From Octopus vulgaris (lineage: Eukaryota), in the NCBI GenBank assembly GCA_951406725.2, contig OX597822.1, positions 79,484,001 to 79,548,000 on the forward strand: a DNA stretch of 64,000 bases, read 5' to 3'. Every line of letters starts with the position of its first letter. The stretch's first letter is position 1. A program made the translations under genes and the position numbers. Of this stretch, positions 4,755 through 64,000 are shown piece after piece. Below the pieces are notes generated by a model that made no database searches, was not told where the DNA came from, and worked only from the letters and a program-made list of their open reading frames with translations.

Positions 4755-7700
4755 TCATGTTTCGTAACAAAAAACGGCACAAGAATAGCTGTCTAAGCCT
4801 CCTAGAAGAATCAAAGAACCCTCTGTAACATGGATATCGTAGATGAGGTAGACTTCGATATCAGCAAGACTGATGTAAGTTTCCATTGAAGTATCCAATG
4901 TTACTTGTAAAATATCGCTCTCTCTTTCCGTTATGTACACCTTTTCCCCGTGTATTGCTATTCGTCTGGGAAACCACCTTAACGGTATGTCGAGAAGCCT
5001 AACCAATCCATCTCTATACCAACAAAGACTTTCACTTGATTTGCTTTTCTTCAGGATAACGATGTCTTCGCTCGATGTGACACCAATTGCTGTGACTGTG
5101 TCCATCCCAAAATCCATTTGACAACTGTATTCATACGTTGCACCGTCAATGTGAAGTACATCTACATATGAGGATGGCAGATGTGGACGATATATCCGAT
5201 TTGGATCACCTTCATATGCACAGACCAATCGACCAGTATTTTTTTTATGAATCATGGTGTATGTTTTTTCCGTGTTGATGGTTTTTAAAAGTGTCAGATC
5301 ACTGTTGAAGAACATCAGCCCTTTAACATCAGAGAAGACGGCAACGAAACACCTTTCCGTCCAGTAGCATATGTCAAGTGGCATTCTTTCAAATGCTCTC
5401 TGCTGAAGTATGTGACCTTCTGTTGTGGCCACAATAAGAGTAAGCTGGTATAGCAGTACAACTATATCCTCTTGTAGCTTAATTAGATGTATGTTTTTGT
5501 AGATTCCAAAGTCGCAGCCCCTATTTGGATCCCCAAAAACTGTAGTTGAAATTGGAAACATCTTGGTTCTATGAGGTAACCTCCTGATTGTTATTTGATC
5601 GTTCTTCAATGTACAATTTGCTATGTAATTACCACGTCTCACTTTTAGGCCTCTTTCAACAATTTCACTTGATCTACTTCTCGATTGGTCAACTACCACT
5701 TTCTTATTAGTTATCTGAGTTATAATATCCGAACTGGAAGAGAAATGAAGAACAGAACCAAGCTTTATTGACGTACATTTCAGAACTTTCAACTGGTCGC
5801 CATCAATCTGTATGATATGATATTCAGCCAAATTAGTAAGTACACAATAGTAAGTATTTCTTATTTTTTTCCGTATTAATCCATAAGATACTGAAGTTTG
5901 CCAGACTTTACACCTTCTCAAATCTTCTTGGCTCAGTTGAAATATTTCTTGTCTATCAGGAACTGTGACCATTATGTAGTTTTTGTCTGAAAAGCACACA
6001 CCACCAACTAAAGTTTCAAGATCCGTGTGATATAGCAGCTTCCCATTTCTCTGATACAGTTTAACATTTCCAGTATTGCCCTTTTCAATCACAACTGTCT
6101 TCCCATCCACAGAAATATCGATATCTTTTATTTGAACAGAATATCGGTCAGTCACTAGCTGACAAACGTGGAAACTTTCCCGATTTAATTTAAGCATGCC
6201 TTCAGCATATAAATACTTTTTGTCAAATCCAACAAACTTTGGACCTTTGCAGCTAATGCTGGTGAAATTAAATGGACGCGTACAATGTTCTGAATTAAAA
6301 AATATTTTCTTGTATTTGCCAGTGTGTGTCAAACAAACAATGCGAGTATTTTCATCGTGAGAATTCTGTAGAGAAGCGTAGACATAAGCGTCGTCGATTG
6401 TTAAACACCCACTACTCATAGACACCAAGGGACAAAAAGTATGCAAACGTTCACCATTGCGGTTCATAAAAATGATAAATTTCTTGATTAAACGAAACCC
6501 TGCAGCGTAGACGATAATGACGTCATCAGCATTAACTGCGATATCATATAGGCCATTATTCACTTCGTTCCTTTCTAAGTCTATTTCTTTTATTACACGG
6601 ATTGTCGGAAGTAGTTCAATGATATGAAGGGCAGGCACTTTTGTTTTATCGTCCGAAAAATTCGTTCCCATTGTTATTCTTGTGGGACCTTTGTTAGTCT
6701 GAATCCGTTGACGAATACTACAAACTAATTGATTATCTGAAAAAGAAGCGATGCACTTATATTTTCTTTCTACCTCGTATGTGGTGAAGGACAATGGAAA
6801 TTCAACTGCTAATGATAACAATTGATTTGCAGTAACTGTCATAGCCAATGTGTTTGGCCTCCATCGACACATTCGAATGGGTAAAACATCCAGTTTGATT
6901 GAGTCCAGAAGTTTTCCATCAAAAGTTAATACCTTAATGTTCTTATTATTTTGATCGCATATTGCAATCAAGTTGTTTTCAGTAATAACTGAACAAAGAA
7001 CGTTCACTGTTTTTTCATCTCCTAAACACTGAGGGACCAAGCATTCTCGAGATTTATCAGAAACTGATAAATCCTGCAGATATAATTTCGAAGACAGCAT
7101 TTCAGTTACACAAATGTTTCTTGAAAATACATCGACGTGATCAATGAACATGTTAAGCTGATTCCTGGTCAGAGGATCCTTCATCTCCAAATTATGGTTA
7201 CTTAAAGCAAACAGTCGACTTTCGTCTATCAGATAAACACAAGTTTTATCAATGCATCCGCCATGCAGAAAACACTGAGGTTTGAAGTTGGTGGGTAAAA
7301 GAGTGGAGTCAGCTTTTGATGAGGTTTTACACTCAAATACTTTCTTCTTAGTAACAATCAGCACATTGAATGTTTCATCGTCAATTGCTAATGGCTTTAT
7401 TACGAAAGGGACACTGATTGTAGAAATGATTTCCCCTTGGTTGTGTTTTTGAATCGATACAATATCTAAATTGCATGGCTTATCACAAAAGCAAAGAATT
7501 CGACCATTACTGAATTTGCGTACACATACATAAGGTTTACTTAACGATATACTTCGAACTCGTTTCGATAGATTTCCGATTACCCTTAATTCTTTCTCCA
7601 ATGGTAATGTTATTCCTATTTGGCTACTATCCCATCGGCATATATCTGTAGCTAAGGACGGCAGAAATAATGTAGACATTACACGTCCATCTTTGGAAAT

Positions 7701-9779
7701 GTATAACAAGCAAGATGTATTCATGTCTGATACGACCAGCTGTCCATTTGGTATATGACATACATCTGCGATGAGAATTTTCTTATTCTTATAGGAATCT
7801 CGTAAATCTATATTTTGAATGTAAGGATTTACCAAATCTAAATGACAACTGGACCATTCTTTATACTTGTAAAAAAGAACTCTATTGAGCTTAATGTCTA
7901 GCACAGAAAAAGTTCCTTGGAAAACACCGATTTGAGAGTGAACAGCGCAAGGAAATTGTAATCGCCATTCGACTTCTCCATATATATTGTAACACTTGAG
8001 AAAGTAACCTTTATTGTGCACAATATAAAAGTGTAAATTATCGGAGTAGATGTGATGGAAGTCAAAATCCAGTTGTTTTTCAAAAAGCCTTTCCCCAAAA
8101 CTTGAATAAAAAAGCAGTTTGTTTTCCTTCAAATCTCCTACTATGAAATTGAGTGGAGTCGCAGCAATGGTGACATCAACATGTTCCAATGAAATTTTGT
8201 TTTCGATTATAACGTTGTCATTTTTAATAGAAAGGATGTGTACCTCTTTACTTTCACTTGTGGTCACAGCCAAAACCTTATCTAATATCATATGACACAT
8301 TCGAATGTAATCAAAGTGGACGTCTATGATGTGACCTTGTTTTAGTATTGGGTAGTGAACGGAGTACGAAATGAATTGAATCTTTTTCTGTTCCCTGAAC
8401 AGAATAAGAAAAGTGTTTGAGTTGAATTTACAAAAGACATCAGGTTGGAAATGAAATTTACAAGCCTTTTCGAGGATTTCTTTTCCATTATCTGTGAATA
8501 ATACAGCTTTCGGACGTGAATAGATAAATAATGTAGAATTACTTGATATAGGCAAAATCCATTGAACATAGCCTGGATCGTCTATATAAATTTGATTATT
8601 TAAAACTGGAGTTTGAAACTTCTGCAAATAGCTTGTCCTTGGCCAAAAGTCTTCGTTTGTTCTAATAATGTGCACAAAACCTAAATAGTCGGACAAGACA
8701 ATAATATTTTTACCAAGAGTAAGATGCCGGGCTTTTATTCCAATTTCTCTTTGTGATACACCACCAGTAGGAGAAATTCTATGAATAATATTACCTTGGA
8801 GGACATAAAAATAGTTATGATAAACGGTGATAGCTGGTGAAGAATCTAAAGAATGGCCGTATAATTGAAATAATTGATGACCATTGAGGTTGTAGCAAGA
8901 AATATGATTGAAATTAGTAAATGTGACTAAGAGGCGGTATTCTGCTATTGCAATGTTTGTAGGTTCATCTTTTAGGCTAAATTTGCTTTCGATTGTATCA
9001 TTATACCAGTCTACGAGATATATTATTTTGCTAAAGAGTTTCACACCCACAAATTCATAATCTTTTACATGGGAAATCTTCTTAAAACCGTACGGAAAAG
9101 TTTTCATTGTGCAAGAAGAAGGACTGAAGAATAGAATTTTTTTCCGAAACGGAATTGTTACCATAACCGTGTCTTTACAAATTTTAGCAATATCAGTGAC
9201 TTGGGAAGGACAGTGAAGCACGTGTTCGTCATGGTTCGTTGTAGTACAGCGTAATGTCATTAAATGCGGTGAATAGGTTACTATTCCATTGTAAATTGCG
9301 ACAATGTTTGTAATTAAGTTCTGGGAATCTTCACCAGAAGCATGAAACTCTGGTGTTGTAGAGACAACTGAAGAGGGATGACGAAATTTACTGTATGGCG
9401 TTGGCATTGCTATGTTCTTGTACGTTGAATGATTGTCGCTTACATAGATTTCAAAAAGTCGTTCGAGAAACCAATTCAGTTTTGGGAAAACAATAAATTC
9501 ATGATTGTTAATATCCCCCTCCAGAATATCTAATCTACTTTTGACATCTTGTAGAAAACGAAATTTATCTAATCCGATACTTTCCAAGTAAATACATTTT
9601 CTATCTATATTGTTTATCATCATCTCAATATTGTCCTTATATTCTTTTATCCTTGGATAATATATGTCTTTGATGGAAATAGTCATTTGCTTTTTTGCTT
9701 TAATTTTCTTACGCATTTCTTCAAGATCTTCGGTCAATTTGGTCGCCAATATTTTTCTTTTTACTTTAGACTTTGGCAT
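4755..9779 (-). CDS. Single-exon 1674-aa protein: N-terminal coiled coil plus ~6 tandem NHL-like beta-propeller domains (similar to molluscan TRIM/NHL-like C-termini, no RING or B-box)
   Basis: 5025-bp stop-free ORF in otherwise decayed DNA, with an in-frame TAA upstream at 9798-9800. A recurring motif at aa ~194 (VTDIAKICKDTVMVTIP), 446 (PDVFCKFNSNTFLILF), 710 (ATDICRWDSSQIGITLP), 967 (PIRMCRWRPNTLAMTV), 1257 (VGGVCFSDKNYIMVTVP) and 1467 (PLDICYWTERCFVAVF). NHL-like blades such as IADVCHIPNGQLVVSDMNTSCLLYISKDG. The fold assignment is inference. Confidence 0.88.
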   Translation of the reverse strand: MPKSKVKRKILATKLTEDLEEMRKKIKAKKQMTISIKDIYYPRIKEYKDNIEMMINNIDRKCIYLESIGLDKFRFLQDVKSRLDILEGDINNHEFIVFPKLNWFLERLFEIYVSDNHSTYKNIAMPTPYSKFRHPSSVVSTTPEFHASGEDSQNLITNIVAIYNGIVTYSPHLMTLRCTTTNHDEHVLHCPSQVTDIAKICKDTVMVTIPFRKKILFFSPSSCTMKTFPYGFKKISHVKDYEFVGVKLFSKIIYLVDWYNDTIESKFSLKDEPTNIAIAEYRLLVTFTNFNHISCYNLNGHQLFQLYGHSLDSSPAITVYHNYFYVLQGNIIHRISPTGGVSQREIGIKARHLTLGKNIIVLSDYLGFVHIIRTNEDFWPRTSYLQKFQTPVLNNQIYIDDPGYVQWILPISSNSTLFIYSRPKAVLFTDNGKEILEKACKFHFQPDVFCKFNSNTFLILFREQKKIQFISYSVHYPILKQGHIIDVHFDYIRMCHMILDKVLAVTTSESKEVHILSIKNDNVIIENKISLEHVDVTIAATPLNFIVGDLKENKLLFYSSFGERLFEKQLDFDFHHIYSDNLHFYIVHNKGYFLKCYNIYGEVEWRLQFPCAVHSQIGVFQGTFSVLDIKLNRVLFYKYKEWSSCHLDLVNPYIQNIDLRDSYKNKKILIADVCHIPNGQLVVSDMNTSCLLYISKDGRVMSTLFLPSLATDICRWDSSQIGITLPLEKELRVIGNLSKRVRSISLSKPYVCVRKFSNGRILCFCDKPCNLDIVSIQKHNQGEIISTISVPFVIKPLAIDDETFNVLIVTKKKVFECKTSSKADSTLLPTNFKPQCFLHGGCIDKTCVYLIDESRLFALSNHNLEMKDPLTRNQLNMFIDHVDVFSRNICVTEMLSSKLYLQDLSVSDKSRECLVPQCLGDEKTVNVLCSVITENNLIAICDQNNKNIKVLTFDGKLLDSIKLDVLPIRMCRWRPNTLAMTVTANQLLSLAVEFPLSFTTYEVERKYKCIASFSDNQLVCSIRQRIQTNKGPTRITMGTNFSDDKTKVPALHIIELLPTIRVIKEIDLERNEVNNGLYDIAVNADDVIIVYAAGFRLIKKFIIFMNRNGERLHTFCPLVSMSSGCLTIDDAYVYASLQNSHDENTRIVCLTHTGKYKKIFFNSEHCTRPFNFTSISCKGPKFVGFDKKYLYAEGMLKLNRESFHVCQLVTDRYSVQIKDIDISVDGKTVVIEKGNTGNVKLYQRNGKLLYHTDLETLVGGVCFSDKNYIMVTVPDRQEIFQLSQEDLRRCKVWQTSVSYGLIRKKIRNTYYCVLTNLAEYHIIQIDGDQLKVLKCTSIKLGSVLHFSSSSDIITQITNKKVVVDQSRSRSSEIVERGLKVRRGNYIANCTLKNDQITIRRLPHRTKMFPISTTVFGDPNRGCDFGIYKNIHLIKLQEDIVVLLYQLTLIVATTEGHILQQRAFERMPLDICYWTERCFVAVFSDVKGLMFFNSDLTLLKTINTEKTYTMIHKKNTGRLVCAYEGDPNRIYRPHLPSSYVDVLHIDGATYEYSCQMDFGMDTVTAIGVTSSEDIVILKKSKSSESLCWYRDGLVRLLDIPLRWFPRRIAIHGEKVYITERESDILQVTLDTSMETYISLADIEVYLIYDIHVTEGSLILLGGLDSYSCAVFCYET

Positions 9780-11665
9780 TTTCTCAGTATTTAATAATTA
9801 TCTATGCTATATGTGTATAACGATTGTTTTCTACAGAGAATGCTGTATGATTTCAGTGAGTATAAGTTGAGATGCAATTTTTTCTCTTTCCTGTATATAT
9901 TTCCACTTCACATAATGATGCAAATTGTATTTGAGAATGGCATTAATATCAAAACATCAAATTGCTGCTTAGATAGAAGTCAGTTGGGCTGAACGATTAC
10001 TGATAGCCTTTTTTGCAATCAGGAAAACTCAAATATTTGATTCTATCAAATTTAAGTGAAAAATTAAATTATCTATTGTTCATATGGACATCACTAAAAC
10101 AACGAAGTTAAGAATTTTCGTTTTGATGGAAACTAAAACATCCTGAATGCTGATTATTGAAGGTAGACATCTCTAAAAGTTATTTTCATTAAACAACACC
10201 AGTAAATCAAGTGAAAGATGTCTATCCTATGCTATATGCAATGAATGTTGGTTTTTTTTCTTGGTTTCCTGTTTTTGGCTTTAGAAAGAAGCTTAGGTTT
10301 ACTTCACAAGTTACCAACATAGAATAAAATATGAAATTTTACTCATATTTCATCGAATAAACCGTTTCCACTTTTGGCAGTTTTCTTCCAGGCAATTTCA
10401 TATTGAATCTAAAATGAAATTAAAATAAAACAAAATAAATTTAGTTCTGTGAAAATAGATATTAGGCTTTCAAAACATTGTTTGAAAATAATATACAGCC
10501 ACCTCCTCCAACAAAACAGCAAAAGGAAAAAAAAATAATAAGCAAGGAAAATATTTGCTTTTCTCTAAAGGCATTAGACATAAGGAAGTTGATTTTTTAT
10601 TAGATATGAGTTGCATTCAAACCACTATTCTTTTATGCTCGCAAGGCCCGAAATTTTGGGGGAAGGGGCCAGTCGATTAGATCGACTCCAGTACGCAATT
10701 GGTACTTCAATTATCGACTCCGAAAGGATGAAAGGCAAAGTCAACGTCGGCGGAATTTGAACTCAGAACGTGCTAATGCTTCTGCCAGCTCGTCGCCTTG
10801 TTCAAACTATTTTCACTAGAATAATCATTATCTCTTACCTTTTACTTGTTTTAGCTATCAGACCGCGGCCATGCTGGGGCATCGCCTTGCAGAATTTTTG
10901 GTTGAATGAATCAAACCCAGGACTTATTTTCTTTTTTGAAACCTGGTACTAATTCTATCGGTTGCTTTTGCCGAACCGTTAAGTTATAGGGAAATAAATA
11001 CACCAACACCGGTTGTCAAGCGGTGGTAGGGGACAACCACCCCTACCACAATACATACACAACGGGTTTCTTTCAGTTTATGTCTACCAAATCCACTCAC
11101 AAGCTTATAGTAGAAGACACTTGCCCAAAGTGCCACGCAGTGGGACTGAACCCGGAACCATGAGATAAAATCCTTCAAGTATGACTCCTTTGAAAATCTC
11201 CTGAATTCTTTGTGGGAATTTGCCTATCCAGGATTCTATTGGTTTTAATCCTAATCCGTGGGGGATATTTGTGTGGAGAATGATTACACCAAAGCTAGCT
11301 GGGATCGTCACTTTATCTACTCTTTCTAGATGAAGGTAGGAACCAGTTTGCACCGCGGTTTGAAAATTATAGCAAACAAAGTGCTCAATGATTAGGTGCT
11401 AGATGCTGGTCCTGGATCAATTAGACGAAATTTTAAATCAGATGGTTCGGGAATCATTACATATAGTGTATGGCGGTTCTTTAAGCTAATATTGGTTTCT
11501 TTAGATTTCTAGATCCTTGGAAGTCCCTAAAAGTTACTTGATTTTGCTACAAAGTTAGTGAGGTATTCCACATTCTTGAATTTGTCCGTTAACTTACCAC
11601 TTTAAATCATTGTTCGTTTATCTTCATTGGTTTCTATTGTTTTTGAAGAAAGGCCGGTCATTTAA

Positions 11666-19168: not shown

Positions 19169-20724
19169 AATTTTCTTATAATGTTTTTACCTGAGAAAAT
19201 GACTGGATTTTTCGATTTATGACAGGTAGTTCTTATTCTTACTGTAACATTGTGTGAATTGATTCTTCAGAACGAAAACGCCCACTGTAAAATGGCGGTG
19301 GCAATGTTAACTTGTTCTAGTTAAGTCTGAGCACGGAAGAGTTAAAACAATAAACAAGAACATTTCCACCCCCAAAAAATCGTATGAAACTTACGCAAGG
19401 TACCAGGCTTACAAAATGTGTTTGAACGGTACGAAGGAATGTTTTGGCGATCGTACTGATAAACAGGCTGTCACGTTACATAAGCGATTCGGCAACATTA
19501 TCTTTCTCCGTCTGACTACTTCTCGCTTCTTTCTCTCCTGTTGTCACTTAGTCAGTAAGTTTGTTTAGATTCTCTTAGCAGCTACTACAGTTAGTTCGCC
19601 ATCCCCACAACTGTATTTCTGCGTATGTCTCTCTAAAATTTGTGTTAGTCTGTAAATGGCCTCAAATATTGTAGTGAAGTAGCACCTACTTCACTACAAG
19701 TTTTATAATAAACTAGCAGAGATACTCGGCTTTGCTCGGGATTAAAATGGCATAATTTTATTATTGTCTTACTTGTTTCAGTTATGTGACTGCGGCCATG
19801 TTGGAGCACCGCCGTTGGTCGCAGAAATTGACGACAGGATTTATTCTTTGTAAGCCTAGTACTTATTCTATCAGTGTCATCTGCCGAACCGCTAAGTTAT
19901 GGGAATGTAAACACAGTAACATCGGTTGTCAAGCATTGGTGGGGGTACAAACTCAGAAAGACAGACACATACACATACACAAATATACACATATATACGA
20001 CAGTATTCTTTCGGTTTCCGTGTACGAAATCCACTCACAAGGCTTTGGTCGGGGCGAAACGTTAGCACGCCGGGCGAAATGTGTAGCCGTATTTCGTCTG
20101 TCGTTACGTTCCGAGTTCAAACCCTGCCGCGGTCGACTTTGCCTTTCATCCTTATGGGGTCGATAAATTAAGTACCAGTTACGCATTGGGGTCGATGTAA
20201 TCGACTTGATCCCTTTGTCTGTCCTTGTTTGTCCTCTCTATGTTTAGCCCCTTATAGGTAATAAAGAAACATATATATATTCATGGTTTTTAGTTTTAAG
20301 CTATTTTATTCCTTTTCTATGGTGTTCTGCCCTACCTGATTATTTTATTATTTTATTATTTTATAATAGCCTTTATTTACAAAATAAATCTAATTTTTGT
20401 ACCCCTATAAATTCATACTTAGCTTATATAAAACAATACTGATATATTCACTACTTAAAATAAACTGCTTAGATTATAATTTAATTAATATATAGTTAGC
20501 ATGTTCTTTTACTTCGGTACTCCTTTATTAAATACCAGTAAATACCAATTGATCAATCTTCACAGATACCATCTAATAAGTTAGTATTTAAGTATATAAT
20601 ATGTATAAATATTAAGCTATTTCTAGGTAATTTCTTTTCCTCCCTCTATTGTGGTAAAAGTTTGGTATATCCTCAAAAGTATTCAAAAAACTTTTTATCC
20701 TTTTGTTATAATATTATTTTAATA

Positions 20725-21085
20725 CACTAATAAATCTCTGAGCGAGATATAAACAGTAACTGCTCTATAACATAAGGGGGATCAGCCATCTGAATGTGGC
20801 TAGGGTCAGGGCGGGGTAGTGGGGGTGTTACTGATGCATTTAGCCCCAGGCGATCATCAACGTCACCAGAAGGGCTGACACCATCTCGGTGTCCTTGCCA
20901 GCCTGCAAAGGGAGATCAGCCTCCCCGAAGATACGGATACTACATACGGACCGGTTTCGAGGTTATTGCCTCTTGTCAACGCATGGCAAGTACCGTTCTT
21001 CGTTGAGGGACTTCCTCTACAGGCTGGATATATAGGGATTTTCACAGTAACCACAGTCACTGGCGTAGAAAATCCGTTCGAAAAC
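20725..21085 (-). mobile_element. ~360-bp GC-rich inserted element carrying a hammerhead
   Basis: Present in this repeat copy but absent at the equivalent site of the paralogue (~25755-25765); contains the HHR at 20943-20985. Confidence 0.7.
20943..20985 (-). ncRNA. Type I hammerhead, U3-A8 core variant
   Basis: catgcg-TTGACAA-gagg caataa cctc-GAAA-ccgg-TC-cgtatg; 6-bp stem I, 4-bp stem II, GUC triplet. Confidence 0.75.
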
Positions 21086-21664
21086 AACTTCTGAATAATC
21101 CTAAATTTTAGCTTTATACAATATGACAATATTGTTTAAAATATTTAACTTTAGTACCTCATGATAAAATTTCCTGTTTCATTATCAATGGTCTACAAAT
21201 TGCTTATCCCTTTAATTGTCAGCTAATATCTTGATTTAAGATTTCCTTTACCAAATCTCATTATATTGCTTCAAATTAATCTTAGTAGTTTTTATGACTA
21301 TACCCACTATAATTTCTGTGGACACCCTCAGCACCGTTCCTAACAGACACTGCTCCTTGTTCTTTTAGCTTTAGATATACAAAGATTTCATAAACTAGAC
21401 TATAAATTAAAACTGACCCCATAAAACAATGACAAGCTAGATCTGTAACAAGTTATTTTTCCTGATACCTAAGTAGCGTCTAAGCTGAAGAGTAGACAGC
21501 ATGTTCTTTGTCTATCTCCTTCCCTTCTTGGAGGTTTTAGGTAAACTTATACTAATGCGTCCATCTGTTTTAATTTAATTTAATTTTATGCCTTTATGCA
21601 GCTGAGGATTGTTCTGCATTTAAATTGATGTAATGATTGCACATTGTTCAATTAAATGGAGTCC

Positions 21665-22005
21665 ACTTTCGACAAGGCGGAGATATGGTTTTCAATCGTG
21701 TTTGTTTGTTTCTCCGTGGACAAGATATCTTAAGAACCGCCGGATGGATTCAGAGGAAACTTTCAGGGATGGTGCGAACTTATTAGATTTTGGGATTGAT
21801 CCGGTACTGGACAAGGATTCAGGATTATTTTTCCGTTTTTTCTTTACTTAATTTTTGAAAGCGGTCGGATTCATTCTTAGTATTTTCGTTTGTGAGAGCA
21901 ATCGAGTTTATTTCAGATATTCTCATTTTAAAATTCATCTCTTACTGATTGTTGAGAGGACGTTGGTGTTGCCTTGGCAGAGGTTTGCGCTCTCTCGGTG
22001 CTCTT
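21665..22005 (+). mobile_element. Helentron-associated (DINE/HINE-like) non-autonomous element
   Basis: Subterminal cgacaaggc / gccttggcag followed by the terminal hairpin gcgctctctcggtgc, the typical HINE layout. Confidence 0.55.
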
Positions 22006-22007
22006 GC

Positions 22008-22868
22008 TTTTATTAAATTTATTTAACCATTTCTTTATTTACTCAGAGTATATCTGTCTTTCCTTCTAAACTAAAAGTTGTTTTTTGATTTAAAGTTTTC
22101 TTTGATTTTACACAATAGGATTTTTAAACCTTTTAATTTCTAATGCATATTACCGTTTCTTAAAAAGAACCGTTAGTTGAAACGACTAATGAAATTATAC
22201 CAATTTCAAATGTGCATCTGTCAATGTAAATTGTATATTTATACATATAACCTTAATTCTTGTTCCGTTCTCAGTCAAAACTGTCCGACGAATGGGAACG
22301 TGAAACTCTGAGCAGCAGTTTTTGTGATGTTTTTGCAGCTTTAATAATAAAGCATATTACTCTACCTCCGGTATTTGAGTACTATTTTTCCCCACCTTGT
22401 TTTACATTTATGTACTTGCTCACCCCACCAATTGTTATGCGTTCATAAATTAGTTTGATAGTTGAATTCTGATTGGCTGTATGCAAATGAGTTCATAACT
22501 GGGGTCCGGAACTCTCGTAGGAAAAGAAATTGCGCTTCCCGTTCGTCGGACAGTTTTGATTGAGAATGGAACAAGAATTAAGATTATATGTATAAATATA
22601 CAATCTACATTGACAGATACACATCTGAAATTGGTTTCATTCCATTACTCTCTCTCTTTTACTCTTTTACTTGTTTCAGTCATTTGACTGCGGCCATGCT
22701 GGAGCACCGCCTTTAGTCGAGCAAATCCACCCCGGGACTTATTCTTTGTAAGCCCAGTACTTATTCCATCGATCTCTTTTGCTGAACCGCTAAGTGACGA
22801 GGACGTAAACACACCAGCATCGGTTGTCAAGCAATGCTAGGGGGACAAACACAGACACACAAACACAT

Positions 22869-25121: not shown

Positions 25122-26870
25122 AAAATAAGCAACAAGGATATCCACAGGTAATGCAGTACACTCGTTTCATGCAACTCCGTTTAATTGAACAATGCAATCC
25201 TTACATCAATTTAAAATGCAGAGCAATTTTCAGCTGCACAAAGACATAAAAGTTAATTAAATTAGAACAGATGGGCATATTAGCGTAATTATACCTAAAA
25301 TCTCCAAGAAGTTAAGGAGATAGACGAAGAACATGTCTTACTGCAGTTTAGAAGTTACTGAATTTTCCAAGAAGATGTACATTGTTACAGACTCTGCCTG
25401 TCACTGATTTTTTGTTTTTATAGGGTCAGTTTTAATTTATAGACTAGTTTATCAAGCCTCTTGTATATCTAAGGCTGAGAGAACAGAGGGCAATATTTGT
25501 AAGGGGTAAGGCTGAGGGAGCAGACAGACATCATAGTTGGTATATTCATAAAAATCAAGATTTATTAGAAGCAATATCATGAGGTTTGGTAAAATAAAAC
25601 TTAAAAATGATGTTAACTGATAATTAAGGGGGTCGACCACTAGCAGGCCATTGATAATGAAACAGGGGAAGACTTATCATGTAGTACTATAGTTAAATAT
25701 TTTAAACACTATTGCTATATTGTATACAGTTAAAGTTTAGGGTTTTTCAAAAGGTTATTAAGAAGAATATTATAACAAAAGGATAGAAATATATGAATAC
25801 TTTTGAGTACATACCAAACTTTTACCCAATAGAGGGAGGAAAAGAAATTATCCATAATGGTTTAATATTTATACATATTGTACACTTAAATACTAACTTA
25901 TTAGATGGTATCTGTGAAGATTGATCAATTGGTATTTACTGGTATTTAATAAAGGAGTACCGAAGTAAAAGAACATGCTAATTATATATTAATAAAATTA
26001 TAATCTAAGCAGTATCTTTTTTATAAGTAGTGAATATACCAGTATAGTTTTATATAAGCTAAGTATGAATTTATAGAGATACAAATATTAGATTAATTTT
26101 ATAAATAAATAAAGGCTAATTATAAAATAATAAAGAAATAAAATAAAATAATCAAGTAGGGGAGAACACCATAGAAAAGGAAATAAAATAGCTTAATTAC
26201 TAATACTATGGTAAAGTATATGTAGCTTCTTAACACCAATAGATAAAATTTTTAGAAAAAGTATAATAATTCAGAATATATTAGACTAAAAATTATATAT
26301 TTACTTATTCAGCTTGTATCAACAAAAGACTGATGTCTGGTATCGGCTAAAGGACTATTTAAGTTATGGAACAATCATATATTACACTAATCTTTTTTTT
26401 AAAACTAAAGGTTATATTATAGGTTTAAGAAGTTATTATTGTTACTCCCTACATGATATTTATAGTTTCTTAGTGGTACTTTTTTAGAAGGGTTATTTAT
26501 ATAAAGGCCCTTATAAATACTAAGATTAGAAGGGTAGAGCCATTTAAGAAAGAGATAAATCAAGTAATTTCTAAAAATAATTTCAAACAATATTGTCTTA
26601 TTGTATAAAGTTAAAATTTAGGGTAATCAAGAAGATTATTAGGAATGAAATTTTACCAAAAGGATAAAACTCCTTTGAATATTTTGAGTATATACCAAAT
26701 TTTTACCACAATAGAGCGAGGAAAAGAAAATTGTAAAGAAATAGTTTAATATTTATTTACTTATTACTTATCTAAATATTAACTTATTTTATGGATTTAA
26801 CTGGTATTAAATAAGGGAACAACTGAGGTTAAAGAACATGTCAACTATACACTGATTTAATTAAATTGAA
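25121..26870 (-). mobile_element. PLE-derived repeat with degenerate hammerhead (25152-25238)
   Basis: Abuts (TA)n; minus strand tgcag-CTGAAAA-ttgc...gcat-GAAA-cgagtg-TA-ctgca; same family as 53497-53815. Confidence 0.7.
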
Positions 26871-27209
26871 CTATTTTAAGTTGTCGAGATACCGGTATGC
26901 ACATCTTAATGTTAGGAAAACAAGATGGTAAGAAAAATTCTTCTCATGTCACAAGACTTTTTTTATTAATAAAATCTAATTGAGGAGTCAACGTGATCTT
27001 GTATCGTTTACTAATTGGACTGCGACCAAGATCAGGCGCCGCCTTTAAGTGTTTAATCAACCAACTCGATCCAAGTACAGTTTTTAATCTGGCAGTATCC
27101 TATCGGACTCTTTTTGCCGAACCAAAATGTTACGGGGGACGTAAATGTAAACAAACCAACACCAGTTGTCAAGTTGTGGTGGGGAGACAAACACGTCGCA
27201 AGCGCAAAG

Positions 27210-30700: not shown

Positions 30701-31580
30701 AAGGCAATTTGATGTACGTAGGTCCTTACTTTTCGTACAAATAATTATTTCTATTTCATGGATGACTTTCGCTAGATTTCACAATTTATTTCGATTATTC
30801 CCAATTTTTTTTTCTCCAAGTTATAAGAATTGTTATGTTAATACGGTAATACCTAAGTAGTTACGTACGTACCTGTGGTGTGTGTCACACTTAGTTGAAA
30901 GGAAGAGGTTAAAAGAGAGAAATGAAACGTATTAAGCAGAAGACGTACAATTGAAGAGGCAAAGCGGCAAAGAATTGGGAGAAGTGGGAGTGAGAGAGCG
31001 AGAAAGAAAGGAAGAAAGAAAGAGAGAGAGAGAGGACGTTGATAGCGCTGAGAGGTAAGAAAAATATACTGCGTTAAACGCAGGAGAAAGGTTAGAGGCA
31101 AGGAGACATAGAGGAGGAAGAGAGGAGGAAGGGGGAAGAGAGAAAGAGATTTAGAGAGATAGACTGAGTGAACGAAAGGATAGAGAAGGATAGTGAAAGA
31201 GAATGAAGTTATTCACAGAGAGAAAACGCTGAAAAACTTTTCGTTTTGGACGATAAATGATAAAGCCATTGTGACAGTTATTCTATACCGTTTGAAAGAT
31301 ATTTGTATAAAATTTCATTAAAAATACCAATTTTCCTGAAAGTTATGAGGCGGAAAATGTCAGGCTGTTTGAATTTTCCGAAACTCCTCTCCCTAGTTCA
31401 CCAGAAAAGCTTTTTCCAACAAATCTTAACATACACACAGCCAACAGGATCTTAGCGATTATTTATGGAATTTATGAGGCAACAAAGTGGGCGGGGTATA
31501 CATCAATAGTTATGCCCATAATTATTCGATAGTTATTAAACGATGTCACTATTTACAGATGCTTACATTTTTTATGTTTA

Positions 31581-31608
31581 CCGTGAAGTTTTCACGGGTC
31601 CAGCTAGT
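31581..31608 (+). mobile_element. Helitron-type 3' terminus (hairpin plus CTAG)
   Basis: ccgtgaa-gtt-ttcacgg hairpin followed by gtccagCTAGt. Confidence 0.6.
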
Positions 31609-31867
31609 AAAAATTGTTATCGTACATAAAAATTCGCACCAAAATATCCTTTAAAAAAATCGCCGAAAGCAATTGTAATAATGAAAACTTGGGAATCCAA
31701 AATTTCAGGATTGCGGCTCCGGATTCGACCCGGAATGTTTTTAATTTACTCACTGAGTCTGCCTGATTCTAAAAGGGTATGATATGTTGGGCTACAGCGT
31801 CTAGGAATATAGTTGAAAAAGTGTGACATACTAACATTCGCATTTATTATATTTTATATTATGTATG

Positions 31868-31945
<78 letters not shown>

Positions 31946-32119
31946 AGAATTCACATAAAAAAACAAAAGACGAAGACAGGTGGTGTAGACAACAAACAGA
32001 TGTATTAGTATAACGCTTGGGAATTGAAAAAGTCTTTAACGTTTCGAGCCTACGCTCTTTCGCAGAAAGTAACACAGAAAGAAACAAGGCGAGAAAATAA
32101 AGAATGTGTAGTGGATAGC

Positions 32120-32263
<144 letters not shown>

Positions 32264-32834
32264 GGCAAATTTGTTGTTGAAAATGCTCCTAAATTTGGAA
32301 AACTCCTAATTGTTTAAAATACATTTATTTATATATATATACAAAATTAGTTTCAACAATAATTTTTGTTTATTAATGATAAAAGTTTAAAATTATAAAT
32401 TAGAGAAACATCTTTAAAAGTTTCAATGTCGACAAATTAAAATGTTCATAACGGACAAATTTAGCATTATGAATTAGGAGGACAGGTACAAGTTTAAATG
32501 TTAACAGCAGTCAATAATATTGAAACTGTACATCAATTTGTTTGAATATACAAAGCTCATTAATGTTAGTGGTGATCGACGAGGCATACTGGGTTAAGAG
32601 GGAAAAAACAAGGGAGAAATGAAGGTAGAGCAAAAAGGGAATTTGGTTTACAGTTTCTCTGATCTTCTTTCCGTAGGCGCTTTCGCTTGTAGTCTACACT
32701 GTCCTATACGGGACAGTGCTACTGACGTTTATAGCCCCAGGAAGACATCTCTTCCAGCTGGTTAACGTCACACATTCTGCGTCTGATTAGTATTTGAGAG
32801 GAGGCCATCGCTCCCATTCCTAGCCTTACGTGAT

Positions 32835-32881
32835 ACACACGCACTCGAGTTTCTGGGTGGTTACCCGTTCTCAGCGTGTGT
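32835..32881 (-). ncRNA. Hammerhead-like motif, probably inactivated
   Basis: acacacg-CTGAGAA-c gggt aacc accc a-GAAA-ctcgag-TG-cgtgtgt; 7-bp stem I and palindromic stem III, but G8A and a GUG triplet. Confidence 0.65.
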
Positions 32882-32899
32882 TAATCACCAGCTAGTGAT

Positions 32900-35800
32900 A
32901 AATTCTTTATTATGATCAAATGATCTAACATAGAGGGGACAGCACAGGACTTTACAAACATATGATATTCATGATTTCGTTTAGTTTAAGCAGTTAAAAA
33001 TATAGACTGATATATATATTTGTGATGAGTGTCAATTACAATGAATTATTTCACATTTTGGCCGTACGAATTTACAATAGATTTAAGTAGGATCATTCAT
33101 ACTCACTTTCTTCACCACATCCTTCCATCTTTTCCCGTATACGCTTCGCGACAGGCGTCCCTTCTTCAGCCCTATCTTGCTCTTCAGATGATATCTGAAA
33201 TAATACAGCAAACCAGGGCCGGAGATGAAGGCTCCCGTCGCAAATCCTTTCATCCTCGTTTTCCATATGCACTCTTTCAAAACTGCAACTGTGCATTACA
33301 AACATGCTTCACCTTCCTTTGACAATCCGGGTGGCGGTACAATCTTAATTATACACCCAGCTGATAGCTGTACTCTTCCTAAATGTGACAGAACGTGTTC
33401 CGTGTAAACTATCAAGTCCGAAATCTCCGGACCCTGAACAAGGGCGTGCAGAACGATTTCATCATTCTGCCCGCACCTTGGGAATGCCGGTGGCACAGAG
33501 ACTATGTCTAGACAGTTTATCACGAACAGGTAAAGCGCTCCTATAGCACTGCCAAGTCAGGGATTTCTGGTAGTTATCCAGGTACCTCGACCCGAAAGTT
33601 ATTTTCAACAGGTTGGCTAGCTGGTCCTCATCGAGTCCCAGAGCTTCAGCCAGGACGTCATCCCTCTTGAACTCTATCAGCCCGCTATAGAGTACCGAGG
33701 TAGTATTCCCAGTGCCAACCTTGCCTGCCTTGTGGATTAGCACGAGTGCCTGTCGGCACACTTTTTGCCATTCAGTCAGGTTCCGTCTTTTCATGAAACA
33801 GGGTTTGACTTCCTCCAAGGAGGCCAGTCGCGGAAAGAATGTCTCTGCCAGCGAATTCCATTCCTGGTCACCCTCCAGGTAGAGCCAGAAATGCTTCAGC
33901 CTCAGTGTATGTCTGCACATCATCAGCTACGGCATCCCTAACCCACCCTTTAGCGGGATTTGGCAGCAGACAGAGCGCCTCACAAGCGGTTTTCCTCCCT
34001 TACACAAAAAGCGAAATGTTTAGTCACGAATCAGGGCAAGGGACAACGATCGCACGGTAGGTGATAACAGATGCAATACACACCTGCACTACCTCCGCCC
34101 TCCTTTTCAGGGATAGCGCCCTTCCAGACCATGTCCAGATTAGATCCGCCACCCTGTCCGCCACTTCCCTCCAATTCTTCTCTGTCTGGGAATCCTGTCC
34201 AAACCAGACTTGTCACTCCAGGTACCGAGCCGCAAGCTCCTGCCACCGCCTCGTAACCTTTGATTGCCTCCTCTACACAAGGTAGCTGAGCTTCATCAGT
34301 TACGGCGATGGTGACGTCATCCGCGTAAGCAGAAATAGACTTCCCACATCCCAATTCATTGAGGACGCCTCCCAAATTCTACAACCTCCGCAGCAATGGC
34401 TCAAGAGCCAGTACATACAGAAGCGGAGACAGGGGGCACCCCTAACGAACGGAGCGCGCGATCTTAAACAGCACAGAGAAGTAACTGTTTATCTGAACTG
34501 TATATACGATGCCGCTATAAATGGCAGCGATCCAACCACGGAAGTCTGGCCCAGTCCAGCTGCCTCGATGACTGCTGCCAGGTACTAGTGTCTACCCTAT
34601 CAAAAGCTTTACTATGGTCTAAATGGACCAGTGTCCCACCTTTACCGGATAACTTACCTACCCTGTCTAAGTTGTAGCTCAGGAGATAGAGATTGTCCTG
34701 GATCGACCTGCCTGGATCGACTTCCCAACAAGTTTCACTGCGTCACGCACCAACCTCTTAGCTAACACCTTGACCAAAATCTTTAACTCTACATTAAGTA
34801 GAGTTATGGGCTTAAAATTGCTCGGGTCTTTTCTGATCAGCGTCACCACTCCCCGACTCACAGAGCTGGGAATCCTCCCATTCTGCGGCCAGTTTGTGTA
34901 GACACAGGCTAGAAAGTGCCCGGACAAGTCCGGCATACTACAATAAAATTCATAGGGCAGACCATCCAGTCCCAGCGATTTGTCCTTGGCGCACTCACCC
35001 AGTACCTTTTCAACCTTCGTAGCCGTAATCGACCCTTCACAGCTTTCCGCCTCCCGTGTCGAGAGTCGCGGCCCGCCGGCGAGGAAGTCCCTTAAGAGCT
35101 CCCCACTATCCAACCCGCCGCTCTCCCCGAACGACCGGGTGAAATGCTGGTGAAAAGTCTTTCGCATCTCCTCTTGTCCTTCCATCGAACGTCTGTTAAA
35201 TACTTGATAGAGGCTTCTCTGCCTCTGACTCTTCACACGACATGCCCATCCGGCAAAGTTAATGCCTTCTCTTCCAACCGCACGAAGTTTAGCTCTGACC
35301 CTACACCCTTTGTGTTCGGCTTTGAGATGACGGTACAAAACCTCTCTCGCCGCCATCACTCTGGATGCAGAACCAGACTCCATGGCCTCATCTAATTCCT
35401 TATTCTATTCTAGTCTTATCTAGACTTAACTGCTGGCTAAATCTAATAGACGCAGAATGAATGGCTCATTTGATGGTGCATCACCTCCTATCATTGATAA
35501 TCGCGCCTGTTAATGTCCTCTGCACTAACTCCTTAACCCAAGCACGGAAGGTTTTACAAGTCAAAATAGACATGTTCATCTTCCAGTACCAGGTCCCTGC
35601 CTATGACACTTAACTAGGTACATCCTACACGTCATAAACTTGTGGTCCTTGTAAGGGACACAACAAAAGCGTGGACAATTAGCAGTATCCCTGTCTCTAA
35701 CAATTATCCTATCTAAATAAGATCTGCATGAACCGTCGTTATTAGACCACGTCCACTGTGGAACGAGCGGTTCATCCAGTCTATATCATTCTACTAGATT

Positions 35801-48664: not shown

Positions 48665-49007
48665 TTACATTGGATGATAATAGAATTAATGACACCTTCG
48701 TAAATTAATTTTTGGCATATATATATATATATAATATGGTCTTGCTAAATTATCTATTAAAGGATGGCAAGTAATATTATTTGCTAAAGAAATTCGAAAC
48801 CATGGTATAACCGTTAAATAACAAGGTAAAAGTTTTTATTTTTCATCTACTTCGAAATTTGCTATTAAATTGTGGTTTTTTGGCCGTGTTGGCTGCTATT
48901 TCTAGCATGTAAAAATTACCTATTAAAGGGTAATTTTCTATTTTGAAATATGAATATATATATATGTAGTTTACAGTATAAGATGCATAGAAGGTGCTTG
49001 TAAGGAC

Positions 49008-49262
49008 ATGAACATAATGTACATAGGGAAGATGTCTAGGAGCATTGCGGAACGGATAAATGAACATCTAAGACAATATGACGACAGAAAACAGTCCTCC
49101 ATACTCTACCAACATGCCAAAGACCACCATGGAGGTAACTTGGGTCAACTTGACACCCGCATATTATCCAAGTACCCAAAAGACCCAACACTCAGACAAA
49201 TACGGGAGTACGTCCTTATAAATGAAACTTCCCCAATACTAAATAGGAAATATACACAATAA
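49008..49262 (+). mobile_element. Penelope GIY-YIG endonuclease fragment
   Basis: YIGKMSRSIAERINEH...LYQHAKDHH...RQIREYVLINETSPILN. Confidence 0.82.
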
Positions 49263-57987: not shown

Positions 57988-58025
<38 letters not shown>

Positions 58026-58065
58026 TCTCACTTTCAGTGTTTTCAAATCCAAACCAAGGAGTTTC

Positions 58066-58117
58066 TGAGCTGATGATAGAAGTGTCTTGATGACTAATCT
58101 TGAAACGTACGTTCTCA
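58066..58117 (+). ncRNA. Type I hammerhead, copy 1
   Basis: tgag-CTGATGA-taga...tctt-GAAA-cgtacg-TT-ctca; palindrome acgtacgt; GUU triplet, predicted cut after 58113. Confidence 0.83.
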
Positions 58118-58626
58118 AATAACCTTTGCATTTGATTTTTTTATGTCTTTACCCCCAAACTTTCGTGAGTTGAGTTGACCAAACACTATACGAGAGAGAT
58201 TTTCTTTAAGTATTAGAAATGGTTTTTAAAAAAGTTTTTTAGCTGCTATTTCTAATGAGTTCAGTATGCGGCAAAGTAATTTATTTTACTAAGCCCTTTT
58301 ATATATTGTAATAATTTGAATTCGCCTTAAATGGTCCCTTTGCATACTGAACACTTGGTGAAATTAATTAATAATTAATTAATTTTACCCTCAATTGTTG
58401 AAATTATAATTAATCTCCCTCTAATTAATGCTTCGGATTTTACCGAAATAAGCAGAGTGTTTGTTGATTTTAACCCACGCTGGTGGAAAGGGGAGAGCAG
58501 AAATTCTTCGCTTGCATGTTTGAGTTTGTTGGCACTGTTAGTTACGAGCAGATCTTCGAAAGCGATGAGAGGCCGAAGGAGTATGCTCTCACTTTCAGTG
58601 TTTTCAAATCCAAACCAAGGAGTTTC

Positions 58627-58678
58627 TGAGCTGATGATAGAAGTGTCTTGATGACTAATCTTGAAACGTACGTTCTCA
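58627..58678 (+). ncRNA. Type I hammerhead, copy 2
   Basis: Identical to copy 1; predicted cut after 58674. Confidence 0.83.
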
Positions 58679-58869
58679 AATAACCTTTGCATTTGATTTT
58701 TTTATGTCTTTACCCCCAAACTTTCGTGAGTTGAGTTGACCAAACACTATACGAGAGAGATTTTCTTTAAGTATTAGAAATGGTTTTTAAAAAAGTTTTT
58801 TAGCTGCTATTTCTAATGAGTTCAGTATGCGGCAAAGTAATTTATTTTACTAAGCCCTTTTATATATTG

Positions 58870-58949
<80 letters not shown>

Positions 58950-62699: not shown

Positions 62700-63530
62700 T
62701 GTGGAGTGGGAAGGTGTTGTGGGTGTGTATGTGATGTGTGAAGTGAATGATTAGTTGCACAGTATGTATGGGTGTTTGTATAGTAGTGATTGTGGGTGAG
62801 GGTACTGAGGTGGGCGGTATGCAAGTGTGTAGGTGGCGGGTGCGGGCGGTGAGTGGGAATCCTTATGGGATTGGTATCAAAGGAAGAGAGGAGGTGAGGT
62901 TGGTATAAGATGAAGAGAGAAGGTTAGTTGAGCCCTGTGGCACAAAGGAACGAAGAGAGAAGATTAATTCCTGTTCACGATGTAGGCGGGAGTCCGGGTG
63001 GGCCCTGTGCAGAGACAATTCAAACACAGAGAAATATAGCAAATGACTAATAGAGAGGAAATGGGGCGTCATTGCCGAGTCTGATTCCTGGAGGTGCTCC
63101 GCGAGCCAGTTAGCCAAGTGGCGTCCCAGTTGACCAATGCACAGGGAAGGACAGAGAGAGCAGGAGATGCAGTAAATAGCATTACTAGAGGTGCAGGTAA
63201 AGAAGTCGGTGACGTGATAGGGACGGTGATGGGTGCCTGTGAGGATGGTGGTGTTGGAGAGGTAGGGGCAGGCGCGACAGCGTAGGCGGGAGCAGGGGAA
63301 GGAACCAGGCTGGGAGACGGTAGTAGGGAAGAAACTGTGGACCAGGAGGTCACGCAGGTTATGGGCGCGTTTGAAGGAAGGAAGGAAGGGGTAGGTTAGG
63401 GAAGATGTGCGAGGTGGATGGGTCGGACTGGAGTCGCCGGAAGGTTCGGAGAATGGTTCGTGGAGGGTTAGGGTGGAGGGGTCGTAGGTAAGGGGAAACG
63501 GAAAGATGTGGTTGGAAATCAAACTTTTTG
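62700..63530 (-). mobile_element. Penelope-like element C-terminal fragment (Zn motif plus GIY-YIG)
   Basis: FKRAHNLRDLLVHS, PCSRLRCRACPY, FTCTSSNAIYCISCSLC and CIGQLGRHLANWLAEH. Confidence 0.88.
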
Positions 63531-64000
63531 TGCCACAGCGACAACTGCGCCTATATATAATTTCATTACACTAGAATTAGAGACAAAACATGTAGACAAT
63601 GCACAGAGAGTTGCACTTGGCTCTGATTTGTAAATATGTAATAAAGGTGATCGAGAAGTAAAGTTAGCAATGATTTTGTTGCTGTAATTATGATTCTTTG
63701 TTCTATTTCGGTAGGGCCATTATGTCAATAATAAGCACTGGTTCTATTTCACTTCTTCATTTATTTGTCAATTGGTTGACTACTTAATCAATTAACTAAC
63801 TGATTGTTTAATTAATTGTTAAGTTAAACAGTTAATCAGCTAGGTTTGTCAAAGTCTTTTTGTCGCCATTTGCGACGTCACGAAGACATGCCCTCTCTAC
63901 TTGAAGTCCATTTCAGATTTGCCTGTCTGAATTTGTCAGTTGCATCTTTTTGCTTTCATTAAATTTCTTCTGTGAATTCCAGATTATCCTTGTCGAAAAA

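What the first reader, a model, noticed from the sequence alone, without database searches (positions are those of the whole stretch)
20725..21085. Small GC-rich mobile element with a U3-A8 hammerhead and a second conserved motif
Seen: this ~360-bp segment is absent from the paralogous repeat at ~25760, so it is most simply an independent insertion. It has no convincing ORF and holds a well-formed hammerhead whose core reads UUGACAA. The motif gtgttactgatgcatttagccccagg (20825-20850) lies 93 bp from the HHR; a related motif, gtgctactgacgtttatagccccagg (32716-32741), lies 94 bp from the HHR-like motif at 32835-32881, although the surrounding sequence differs. Known: positions 3 and 8 form a Watson-Crick pair, so U3-A8 is a compensatory substitution. 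Inference: this is a family of non-autonomous ribozyme elements with a second conserved cis-signal, perhaps an RT recognition site.
Basis: partly seen in the sequence, partly recalled or inferred. Interest (0 to 1): 0.7.

Follow-up and report, generated by a model that had tools for sequence, protein, structure and literature searches.

The report
Octopus hammerhead retrozyme with U3-A8 core
A 360-base non-coding insertion in an octopus genome is one unit of a repeat that also occurs joined head to tail and carries a hammerhead-shaped RNA motif with a known core variant; it is likely a small parasitic retroelement (a retrozyme, a kind known from other animals), predicted to cut its own RNA and probably copied by Penelope-like retrotransposon enzymes, and the role of its second conserved motif is untested.

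Summary
20725-21087 is an insertion into an older AT-rich repeat. Its minus strand carries a type I hammerhead of canonical build (6-bp helix I, 4-bp helix II, palindromic helix III, GUC site) with a U3-A8 core. The 26-nt motif and its partner at 32716 are real and sit 98 and 100 nt past the predicted cuts; the two copies are diverged homologues over about 175 nt, and the second hammerhead looks decayed.

New here: contigs of public runs join 21087 back to 20728, so the element is one 360-bp unit of a head-to-tail repeat, the defining layout of animal non-LTR retrozymes. No Penelope ORF was found beside either copy. Relatives' substitutions keep the helices around the ribozyme on the minus strand. 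U3-A8 is already known from phage and Schistosoma Penelope hammerheads; I did not find it reported in a retrozyme, nor any octopus retrozyme, in the searches run.

The internal motif's function is untested. A terminal 36-nt segment shared with another abundant repeat is an equally good candidate for reverse-transcriptase recognition. Cleavage, circles and mobility are not shown. Verdict: a modest new variant of a known kind; interest 0.4.

The parts
20725..21087 (-). Whole insertion: one 360-bp unit (20728-21087) plus a 3-nt near-redundancy at the ends; 139 nt before and 224 nt after the predicted cut
   Evidence: head-to-tail joint 21087 to 20728 'goes back 360' in runs X2 and X9, loose ends equal to the unit's start in X1 and X2
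20943..20985 (-). Type I hammerhead motif: helix I 6 bp, core U3-U4-G5-A6-C7-A8-A9, helix II 4 bp with 6-nt loop, GAAA, palindromic helix III, GUC; predicted cut between 20949 and 20948
   Evidence: not detected by Rfam at E up to 10
20899..21026 (-). Predicted long helix that extends helix I through a 4x2 internal loop and would hold the two cut ends together
   Evidence: pair probabilities 0.98-1.0 at the varied positions; 7 of 7 family substitutions at paired positions here are compatible (one needs its partner's listed change; unphased)
20825..20850 (-). Second conserved motif, 98 nt 3' of the cut; its first part is the 3' arm of a predicted hairpin, the rest is mostly unpaired and runs into an A/C-rich stretch; function untested
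   Evidence: one search shows several sister subfamilies sharing this region and diverging on either side
20728..20763 (-). Terminal 36 nt with a small predicted hairpin, shared with another abundant repeat; candidate reverse-transcription start / 'tail'
   Evidence: table 7: 65 (X1) and 73 (X2) contigs leave the element after 20763 into one other sequence; 65 and 62 contigs run on before 20728 into mixed flanks; hairpin
20296..21662 (.). Older AT-rich host repeat interrupted by the insertion (20296-20724 and 21088-21662)
   Evidence: 89% and 77% identical to the inverted copy at 25174-26196
25174..26196 (.). Paralogous copy of the host repeat with the empty site at about 25753-25756
32713..32890 (-). 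Diverged sister copy: motif 32716-32741 and hammerhead-like motif (core 32874-32868) with C3-A8, C10.1-A11.1 mismatches and GUG triplet; probably decayed; its ends were not determined
62863..63570 (-). Context only: fragment homologous to the C-terminal part of RT + GIY-YIG (Penelope-type) proteins, showing such elements occur in this genome; not linked to the finding

Best explanation
The segment is one 360-bp non-coding unit of a repeat that also occurs joined head to tail, and is likely a non-LTR retrozyme: transcripts of tandem copies would be cut once per unit by the U3-A8 hammerhead (probably folded as a dimer through its palindromic helix III), the monomers would likely be ligated into circles, and a Penelope-like RT-endonuclease would probably copy them back into AT-rich DNA. 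Shown: the insertion, its boundaries, the hammerhead anatomy, the head-to-tail joint, lack of coding capacity. Inferred from the known class: cleavage, circularisation, the identity of the mobilising enzyme. Inferred from anatomy: the copy spans the cut site (139 nt before, 224 nt after) and is exactly one unit plus 3 nt, so its template was not a cut linear monomer; a circle copied once round from a fixed internal start at about 20725, or an uncut multimer, would give this. The internal motif is most likely a protein-binding site on the RNA between the cut and that start (about 50%), with a DNA promoter element (about 25%) or a purely structural or passively conserved block (about 25%) as alternatives.
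For: Head-to-tail joint in a DNA-guessed run (X2) and an RNA-guessed run (X9), and loose ends after 21087 that equal the unit's start in X1 (3 contigs, agreement 1.0) and X2 (4 contigs, 0.95). Unit size, GC below 50% and canonical hammerhead build match the class (PMC7229834: mussel units 350-390 bp; PMC4209133). Minus-strand circle folds at -119.7 kcal/mol, z -4.1 against 60 shuffles; plus strand z -2.0. Family substitutions at 20945, 20982, 20991, 20996, 21019, 21026 and 20899 are all compatible with minus-strand pairing; two of them break the plus-strand fold. Between the two window copies helix I keeps 6 of 6 pairs with one two-sided and one one-sided change, helix II has one two-sided change, and helix III stays palindromic with a different sequence. 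No variant is listed at core positions 3 or 8, and contigs identical to the window span the core in X9 (204 nt) and X6 (115 nt). 20 of 24 listed runs, 9 studies, 4 coded organisms hold half or more of the words. None of 150 Penelope-type proteins matches near either copy. A Penelope-like RT starts internally, about 90 nt past its hammerhead cut, and prefers ATT targets (PMC11167929).
Against: The window copy is a lone monomer; the tandem form rests on a few contigs and no array was seen whole. No run is on record as RNA, and contigs cannot show strand, circles or cleavage. Over the whole unit the substitution test is only suggestive: of 28 variants, 12 unpaired, 8 kept, 3 kept only if the partner also changes, 5 broken, against 10.6 broken expected (P 0.009, or 0.16 if the three unphased count as broken; plus strand P 0.056 / 0.14); the 7-of-7 helix was picked after seeing the table. 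The isolated 59-nt hammerhead region folds no better than shuffles (z -0.23) and Rfam does not detect it. 318 loose-end rows, 14 variant rows and 5 joints were not shown, so a minority link to an ORF is not excluded. Eight of nine Xenopus retrozyme dimers did not cleave in vitro (bioRxiv 2026.07.22.740005). The motif shows no significant structure of its own and two-copy consensus folds are weak on both strands.
Confidence: 0.75

Rival explanations
1. The segment is the pseudo-LTR plus tail of an autonomous Penelope-like element, left by a 5'-truncated insertion; the head-to-tail joints come from partial tandems or deletion derivatives.
For: Penelope elements carry type I hammerheads in their pLTRs, including U3-A8 forms, and most genomic motifs are solitary (PMC4209133); 30-40-bp tails are typical (PMC8557442) and the terminal shared segment is 36 nt; a Penelope-type fragment lies in the window; retrozymes appear to derive from pLTRs (bioRxiv 2026.07.22.740005).
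Against: All listed loose ends after 21087 read the unit's own start, none an ORF end; no hit of 150 Penelope-type proteins in 19700-22100 or 31500-33200; the hammerhead has the canonical 4-bp helix II and no extra base between positions 9 and 10.1, unlike the minimal pLTR type. The protein set was seeded by one fragment and may miss other clades.
Confidence: 0.15
2. It is a SINE-like linear element: 21087 is a promoter-defined 5' end, the terminal 36 nt are borrowed from a partner retroelement (LINE or Penelope-like), the hammerhead is incidental to mobility, and arrays arise secondarily; the internal motif would be a promoter element.
For: The exact one-unit length is also what a full-length linear transcript gives; the 3'-terminal 36 nt are shared with another abundant family, as SINE tails are with LINEs (established knowledge); D. 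virilis Penelope has an internal promoter (PMC2377424 abstract); hammerhead cleavage was dispensable for insertion by the anole element in vitro (PMC11167929). A promoter inside newt satellite 2 is recalled, not confirmed.
Against: No tRNA, 5S or 7SL match at E up to 10; no poly(A) or simple-repeat tail and no target-site duplication; the helices around the cut are maintained by substitutions and the whole unit folds well as a circle.
Confidence: 0.08
3. The hammerhead reading or the motif pairing is chance in a GC-richer repeat.
For: Rfam misses both motifs; the 26-nt match alone has BLAST E 0.9 in the window.
Against: Strict descriptor hits 1 of 100 shuffled windows; compensatory changes between the copies; homology over 175 nt at E 0.0056.
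Confidence: 0.02

Closest known systems
Metazoan non-LTR retrozymes (Cervera and de la Pena 2020, PMC7229834; parts 2-4 of 6 and keyword passages read; supplement unreadable)
   Same: Non-coding unit in the 150-450-bp range (mussel 350-390 bp), head-to-tail joints, canonical type I hammerhead with short palindromic helix III, GC below 50%, highly self-paired predicted circle, no LTR.
   Different: Core is U3-A8; the main text mentions neither U3-A8 nor octopus. A conserved internal motif and a terminal segment shared with another family are not described in the parts read. Expression and cleavage are shown there and not here.
Vertebrate non-LTR retrozymes as Penelope derivatives (Li, Clavereau and Pollet, bioRxiv 10.64898/2026.07.22.740005; parts 1-3 of 5 read; supplements closed)
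   Same: Dispersed monomers alongside arrays; co-occurrence with Penelope-like elements; proposed mobilisation by their enzymes.
   Different: No mollusc sampled; no cis-signal identified; here no parent pLTR has been identified.
Hammerheads in Penelope-like pseudo-LTRs, including the U3-A8 variant of Schistosoma Cercyon elements (Cervera and de la Pena 2014, PMC4209133; parts 1-2 of 4 read)
   Same: Type I, palindromic around 15.2-16.2, dimer-dependent, U3-A8 covariation (about 1,300 hits in S. mansoni).
   Different: Those are minimal motifs with long helix II and an extra base after A9, tied to ORF-bearing elements; this one has the canonical build and no ORF was found.
Natural U3-A8 hammerheads (Perreault et al. 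2011, PMC3088659; keyword passages read)
   Same: Same compensatory core pair, stated there to be active in vitro.
   Different: Different genomic setting; not described there as a tandem retroelement in the passages seen.
Anole Poseidon element PAc (Frangieh et al. 2024, PMC11167929; parts 1-2 of 4 read)
   Same: Works-like model: fixed internal RT start 3' of the hammerhead, AT-rich target, tail between two start sites, A/C-rich stem-loop.
   Different: Autonomous, start site inside the ORF about 90 nt past the cut; here the insertion end is 224 nt past the cut and the A/C-rich stretch (72% A+C over 46 nt; 54% in the second copy) lies about 120-160 nt past it. No sequence comparison was possible.

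Membership tests
Non-LTR retrozyme | Short unit (150-450 bp) occurring head to tail | tested here: met
   360-bp unit; joint 21087 to 20728 in X2 and X9, matching loose ends in X1 and X2. The window copy itself is a monomer; no whole array seen.
Non-LTR retrozyme | One type I hammerhead of canonical build per unit | tested here: met
   Helix I 6 bp, helix II 4 bp with 6-nt loop, palindromic helix III, GUC; core pair is the U3-A8 variant.
Non-LTR retrozyme | No protein coding | tested here: met
   Longest stop-free run 92 codons in the circularised unit; no relatives for one 62-residue frame; no Penelope-type protein hit.
Non-LTR retrozyme | No LTRs; GC below 50% | tested here: met
   Only a 3-nt terminal near-redundancy; GC 49.4%, marginal. 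PBS and PPT were not searched for.
Non-LTR retrozyme | Highly self-paired circular monomer (predicted) | tested here: met
   Circular MFE -119.7 kcal/mol, 61% paired, z -4.1 against 60 shuffles on the hammerhead strand.
Non-LTR retrozyme | Target-site duplication longer than 4 bp when present | tested here: inconclusive
   No duplication seen against two empty paralogues; the paper says 'when present'.
Non-LTR retrozyme | Expressed as linear and circular RNA | not testable with these tools
   Only contigs of runs guessed to be RNA were available; they cannot show strand, ends or circles.
Non-LTR retrozyme | Self-cleavage | not testable with these tools
   Needs an in vitro assay.
Pseudo-LTR of an autonomous Penelope-like element | Adjoins an RT + GIY-YIG ORF | tested here: not met
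   0 hits of 150 Penelope-type proteins near either copy; listed loose ends after 21087 are the unit's own start (318 rows not shown).
Pseudo-LTR of an autonomous Penelope-like element | Minimal hammerhead build (long helix II, extra base after A9) | tested here: not met
   against the description in PMC4209133; that paper also reports variants with a small palindromic helix III.
Pseudo-LTR of an autonomous Penelope-like element | 30-40-bp tail at the insertion end | tested here: inconclusive
   A 36-nt terminal segment is shared with another family; whether it is an optional tail was not testable.
Pseudo-LTR of an autonomous Penelope-like element | Match to a curated family in Dfam or Repbase | not testable with these tools
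   No repeat library and no host genome were available.
Rfam hammerhead families | Covariance-model hit | tested here: not met
   No hammerhead family listed at E up to 1 for the window or up to 10 for either region.
SINE | Head derived from tRNA, 5S or 7SL RNA; A-rich or simple-repeat tail; target-site duplication | tested here: not met
   No such Rfam hit; no tail or duplication at the junctions.

The most novel reading that the evidence does not exclude
Octopus genomes hold a large superfamily of retrozymes, invisible to standard hammerhead searches because of the U3-A8 core, whose subfamilies share a two-part cis-signal for a Penelope-like reverse transcriptase: an internal 26-nt protein-binding motif about 100 nt past the cut and a terminal 36-nt start site shared with the partner element. 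Exact one-unit insertions that span the cut would be the footprint of one round of reverse transcription on a circle. This would name the enzyme and the signal that mobilise animal retrozymes, which the class's describers leave open.
Probability: 0.25. Interest if true: 0.65.

Novelty: new variant of a known kind. Interest (0 to 1): 0.4.

Why it matters
The class is known, so the element itself is not surprising. It matters in three modest ways. It extends retrozymes to octopods (none found in print; supplements unseen). It shows a family whose U3-A8 core escapes Rfam and any CUGANGA-based descriptor, so counts of genomic ribozymes may be too low. And it offers two concrete candidate cis-signals, which make the open question of how animal retrozymes are recognised and copied directly testable with a genome assembly and an existing type of in vitro assay.

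Tried and rejected
No host genome was held, so no copy census or covariance model on many copies was possible. Pattern scans for the motif found nothing in viral contigs or metagenome contigs, and a scan for the terminal segment found nothing in metagenome contigs; these collections are not expected to hold octopus DNA, so this says nothing on distribution. Rfam found no hammerhead or other ribozyme at either copy. No RNA holder listed: no evidence either way on expression. Summed contig depth peaks over the motif and falls about four-fold near the cut site and toward the 5' end, but the tool states that it is no copy number, so I do not use it as evidence. I considered a plus-strand ribozyme or pseudoknot at the motif (G-U pairs seemed to favour that strand): single-sequence folds were not significant, the two-copy folds were weak on both strands, and a common variant at 20834 breaks the proposed pairing; rejected as unsupported. 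A two-copy profile found no third copy in the window. The partner family's adjoining sequence and the terminal hairpin have no other match in the window. Protein searches with the Penelope-like fragment against longer proteins and with the element's 62-residue frame found nothing. Earlier findings by sequence and by place were empty. Paper searches for U3-A8 spellings listed 10 papers, of which only PMC4209133 names U3-A8 in a hammerhead; the library misses most subscription papers. A search for a promoter in newt satellite 2 gave no paper that I read to confirm it.

Full report
Host and setting. The window comes from an octopod: all 53 named relatives among the 54 hits of a large ORF at 4755-9797 are from Octopus or Argonauta. 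No whole genome was held, so evidence on other copies comes from one laying of public contigs.

The insertion. The flanks 20296-20724 and 21088-21662 match an inverted paralogue at 25174-26196 (89% and 77%), with the break opposite 25756|25753. A second paralogue at 26634-26644 is also empty, and 12 of the 15 joints listed skip the segment between the same flanks. The insert is 49% GC against 22% and 29% in the flanks. No target-site duplication is visible; the target is AT-rich and resembles the element's own end over 6 nt, which may be microhomology or only shared AT-richness. The longest stop-free run, read across the joint, is 92 codons.

The hammerhead. On the minus strand the core reads UUGACAA (20979-20973), followed by a 4-bp helix II with a 6-nt loop, GAAA, the palindrome ACCGGU and a GUC triplet; helix I has 6 of 6 pairs and continues through a small internal loop. 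A strict canonical descriptor allowing C3-G8 or U3-A8 hits only here in the window, and in 1 of 100 shuffled windows. The palindrome cannot close a stable helix III within one motif but pairs with a second copy (duplex -8.3 kcal/mol), the dimer arrangement described for animal type I hammerheads (PMC4209133). Rfam does not detect the motif. In one search no variant is listed at positions 3 or 8 among 40 rows shown (14 not shown, and rows resting on single low-depth contigs are among those shown), and contigs identical to the window span the core in X9 (204 nt) and X6 (115 nt). U3-A8 is therefore a trait of the family, not a private mutation. It is a known natural variant: Perreault et al. report it and cite in vitro activity (PMC3088659, passages), and Cervera and de la Pena found about 1,300 in Schistosoma Penelope-related motifs.

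It is one unit of a head-to-tail repeat. Twenty of 24 listed runs, from 9 studies and 4 coded organisms, hold at least half of the element's words. Laying four of them (X1, X2, X6, X9) gave a joint from 21087 back to 20728, 'goes back 360', in X2 (guessed DNA) and X9 (guessed RNA), and loose ends after 21087 that read the unit's own start in X1 (3 contigs) and X2 (4 contigs). No listed loose end there leads into other sequence, though 318 rows were not shown. The unit is thus 360 bp and the window copy is one unit plus 3 nt, 139 nt before and 224 nt after the predicted cut. A cut linear monomer could not template such a copy; a circle or an uncut multimer could, and so could a promoter-defined linear transcript. 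None of 150 unnamed proteins homologous to a Penelope-like fragment at 62863-63570 (4 of 4 long ones tested have RT + GIY-YIG) matches near either copy.

Structure. The cleavage-defined monomer folded as a circle gives -119.7 kcal/mol, z -4.1 against 60 shuffles; the opposite strand gives z -2.0. Of 28 listed variants inside the unit, 12 fall on unpaired positions, 8 keep the pair, 3 keep it only if the partner's listed change goes with them, and 5 break it, against 10.6 breaks expected (P 0.009, or 0.16 if the 3 unphased count as breaks; plus strand 0.056 and 0.14). In the helix around the hammerhead (20899-21026) all 7 changes at paired positions are compatible; this subset was chosen after seeing the table.

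The second copy and the motif. The motif at 20825-20850 and its partner at 32716-32741 share 21 of 26 letters and lie 98 and 100 nt past the predicted cuts. The two copies are homologous over about 175 nt: either finds the other as best non-self hit (E 0.0056 and 0.0053), and a gapped alignment scores 176 against at most 145 in 500 shuffles. Identity is 35 of 65 over the hammerhead, 33 of 81 over the spacer and 21 of 26 over the motif (alignment A5), so the motif is the best-kept part. Helix I keeps all 6 pairs through one two-sided and one one-sided change, but the second hammerhead has C3-A8 and C10.1-A11.1 mismatches and a GUG triplet and is probably dead. Other hammerhead-like motifs in the window (32065, 58070, 58631) lack the motif, so it marks this lineage only. 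In one search several contigs share the motif region and diverge on both sides, including a 359-nt contig in X6, which points to sister subfamilies. The motif has no significant fold alone; in the circle its first part closes a hairpin and the rest is unpaired; two-copy folds are weak on both strands. Its function is untested.

A second candidate signal. The terminal 36 nt (20728-20763) are shared with another abundant repeat: 65 contigs in X1 and 73 in X2 leave the element after 20763 into one other sequence, and a similar number run out before 20728 into mixed flanks. They contain a small predicted hairpin. Penelope-like insertions often carry a 30-40-bp tail (PMC8557442, passages), which in the anole element lies between two internal RT start sites (PMC11167929). 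This segment is at least as good a candidate for RT initiation as the internal motif. The second window copy shows no match to it, and the partner family was not identified.

Mechanism. Most likely (0.75) a non-LTR retrozyme: tandem copies are transcribed, cut once per unit by paired hammerheads, ligated to circles by a host ligase, and copied into AT-rich DNA by a Penelope-like RT-endonuclease from a fixed internal start. The layout is shown; cleavage, circles and the enzyme are inferred from PMC7229834 and the 2026 preprint, which also reports that 8 of 9 tested dimers did not cleave. Rivals: pLTR remnant of an autonomous Penelope-like element (0.15), SINE-like linear element (0.08), chance (0.02).

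Novelty. The class and the core variant are each described. I found no report of an octopus retrozyme ('octopus' absent from the main texts of PMC7229834 and PMC5680766) or of U3-A8 in a retrozyme, but supplements and repeat libraries were not visible. Earlier notes of this scan describe similar retrozymes and U3-A8 motifs in other genomes; they are leads, not support. Verdict: new variant of a known kind, interest 0.4; the most novel reading (a defined two-part RT signal) has probability about 0.25 and would merit 0.65.

Noticed in passing
window 58021-58874 (+): A separate family: 561-bp unit in about 1.5 head-to-tail copies (293 nt repeated at 100%) between two (TA)n tracts, each copy with a C3-G8 hammerhead-like motif with a long helix II (cores at 58070 and 58631); lacks the motif of this finding. 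Looks like a young non-autonomous Penelope-type partial tandem.
   Followed up: partly
window about 32030-32065 (-): Lone degenerate minimal-type hammerhead motif beside a microsatellite.
   Followed up: no
window 20728-20763 and contigs of X1, X2, X6, X9: An unidentified, abundant repeat family shares exactly these 36 terminal bases and then diverges; possible partner element.
   Followed up: partly
X6 record 20 (matches 20784-20876): A 359-nt contig of a sister subfamily, close to one unit long, sharing the motif region but differing on both sides; and an X2 loose end before 20947 that resembles the sequence beside the second copy's hammerhead, suggesting intermediates between the two window copies.
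   Followed up: no
window 4755-9797 (-): 1,680-codon uninterrupted ORF of an expanded, uncharacterised family found only in Octopus and Argonauta among named hits; no Pfam match.
   Followed up: partly
window 62863-63570 (-) and 48954-49241 (+): Fragments homologous to the GIY-YIG end of Penelope-type RT proteins.
   Followed up: partly
window 20296-21662, 25174-26196, 26575-26898: AT-rich host repeat of about 0.9 kb present in at least three copies, two of them spaced about 880 bp apart; unclassified.
   Followed up: no
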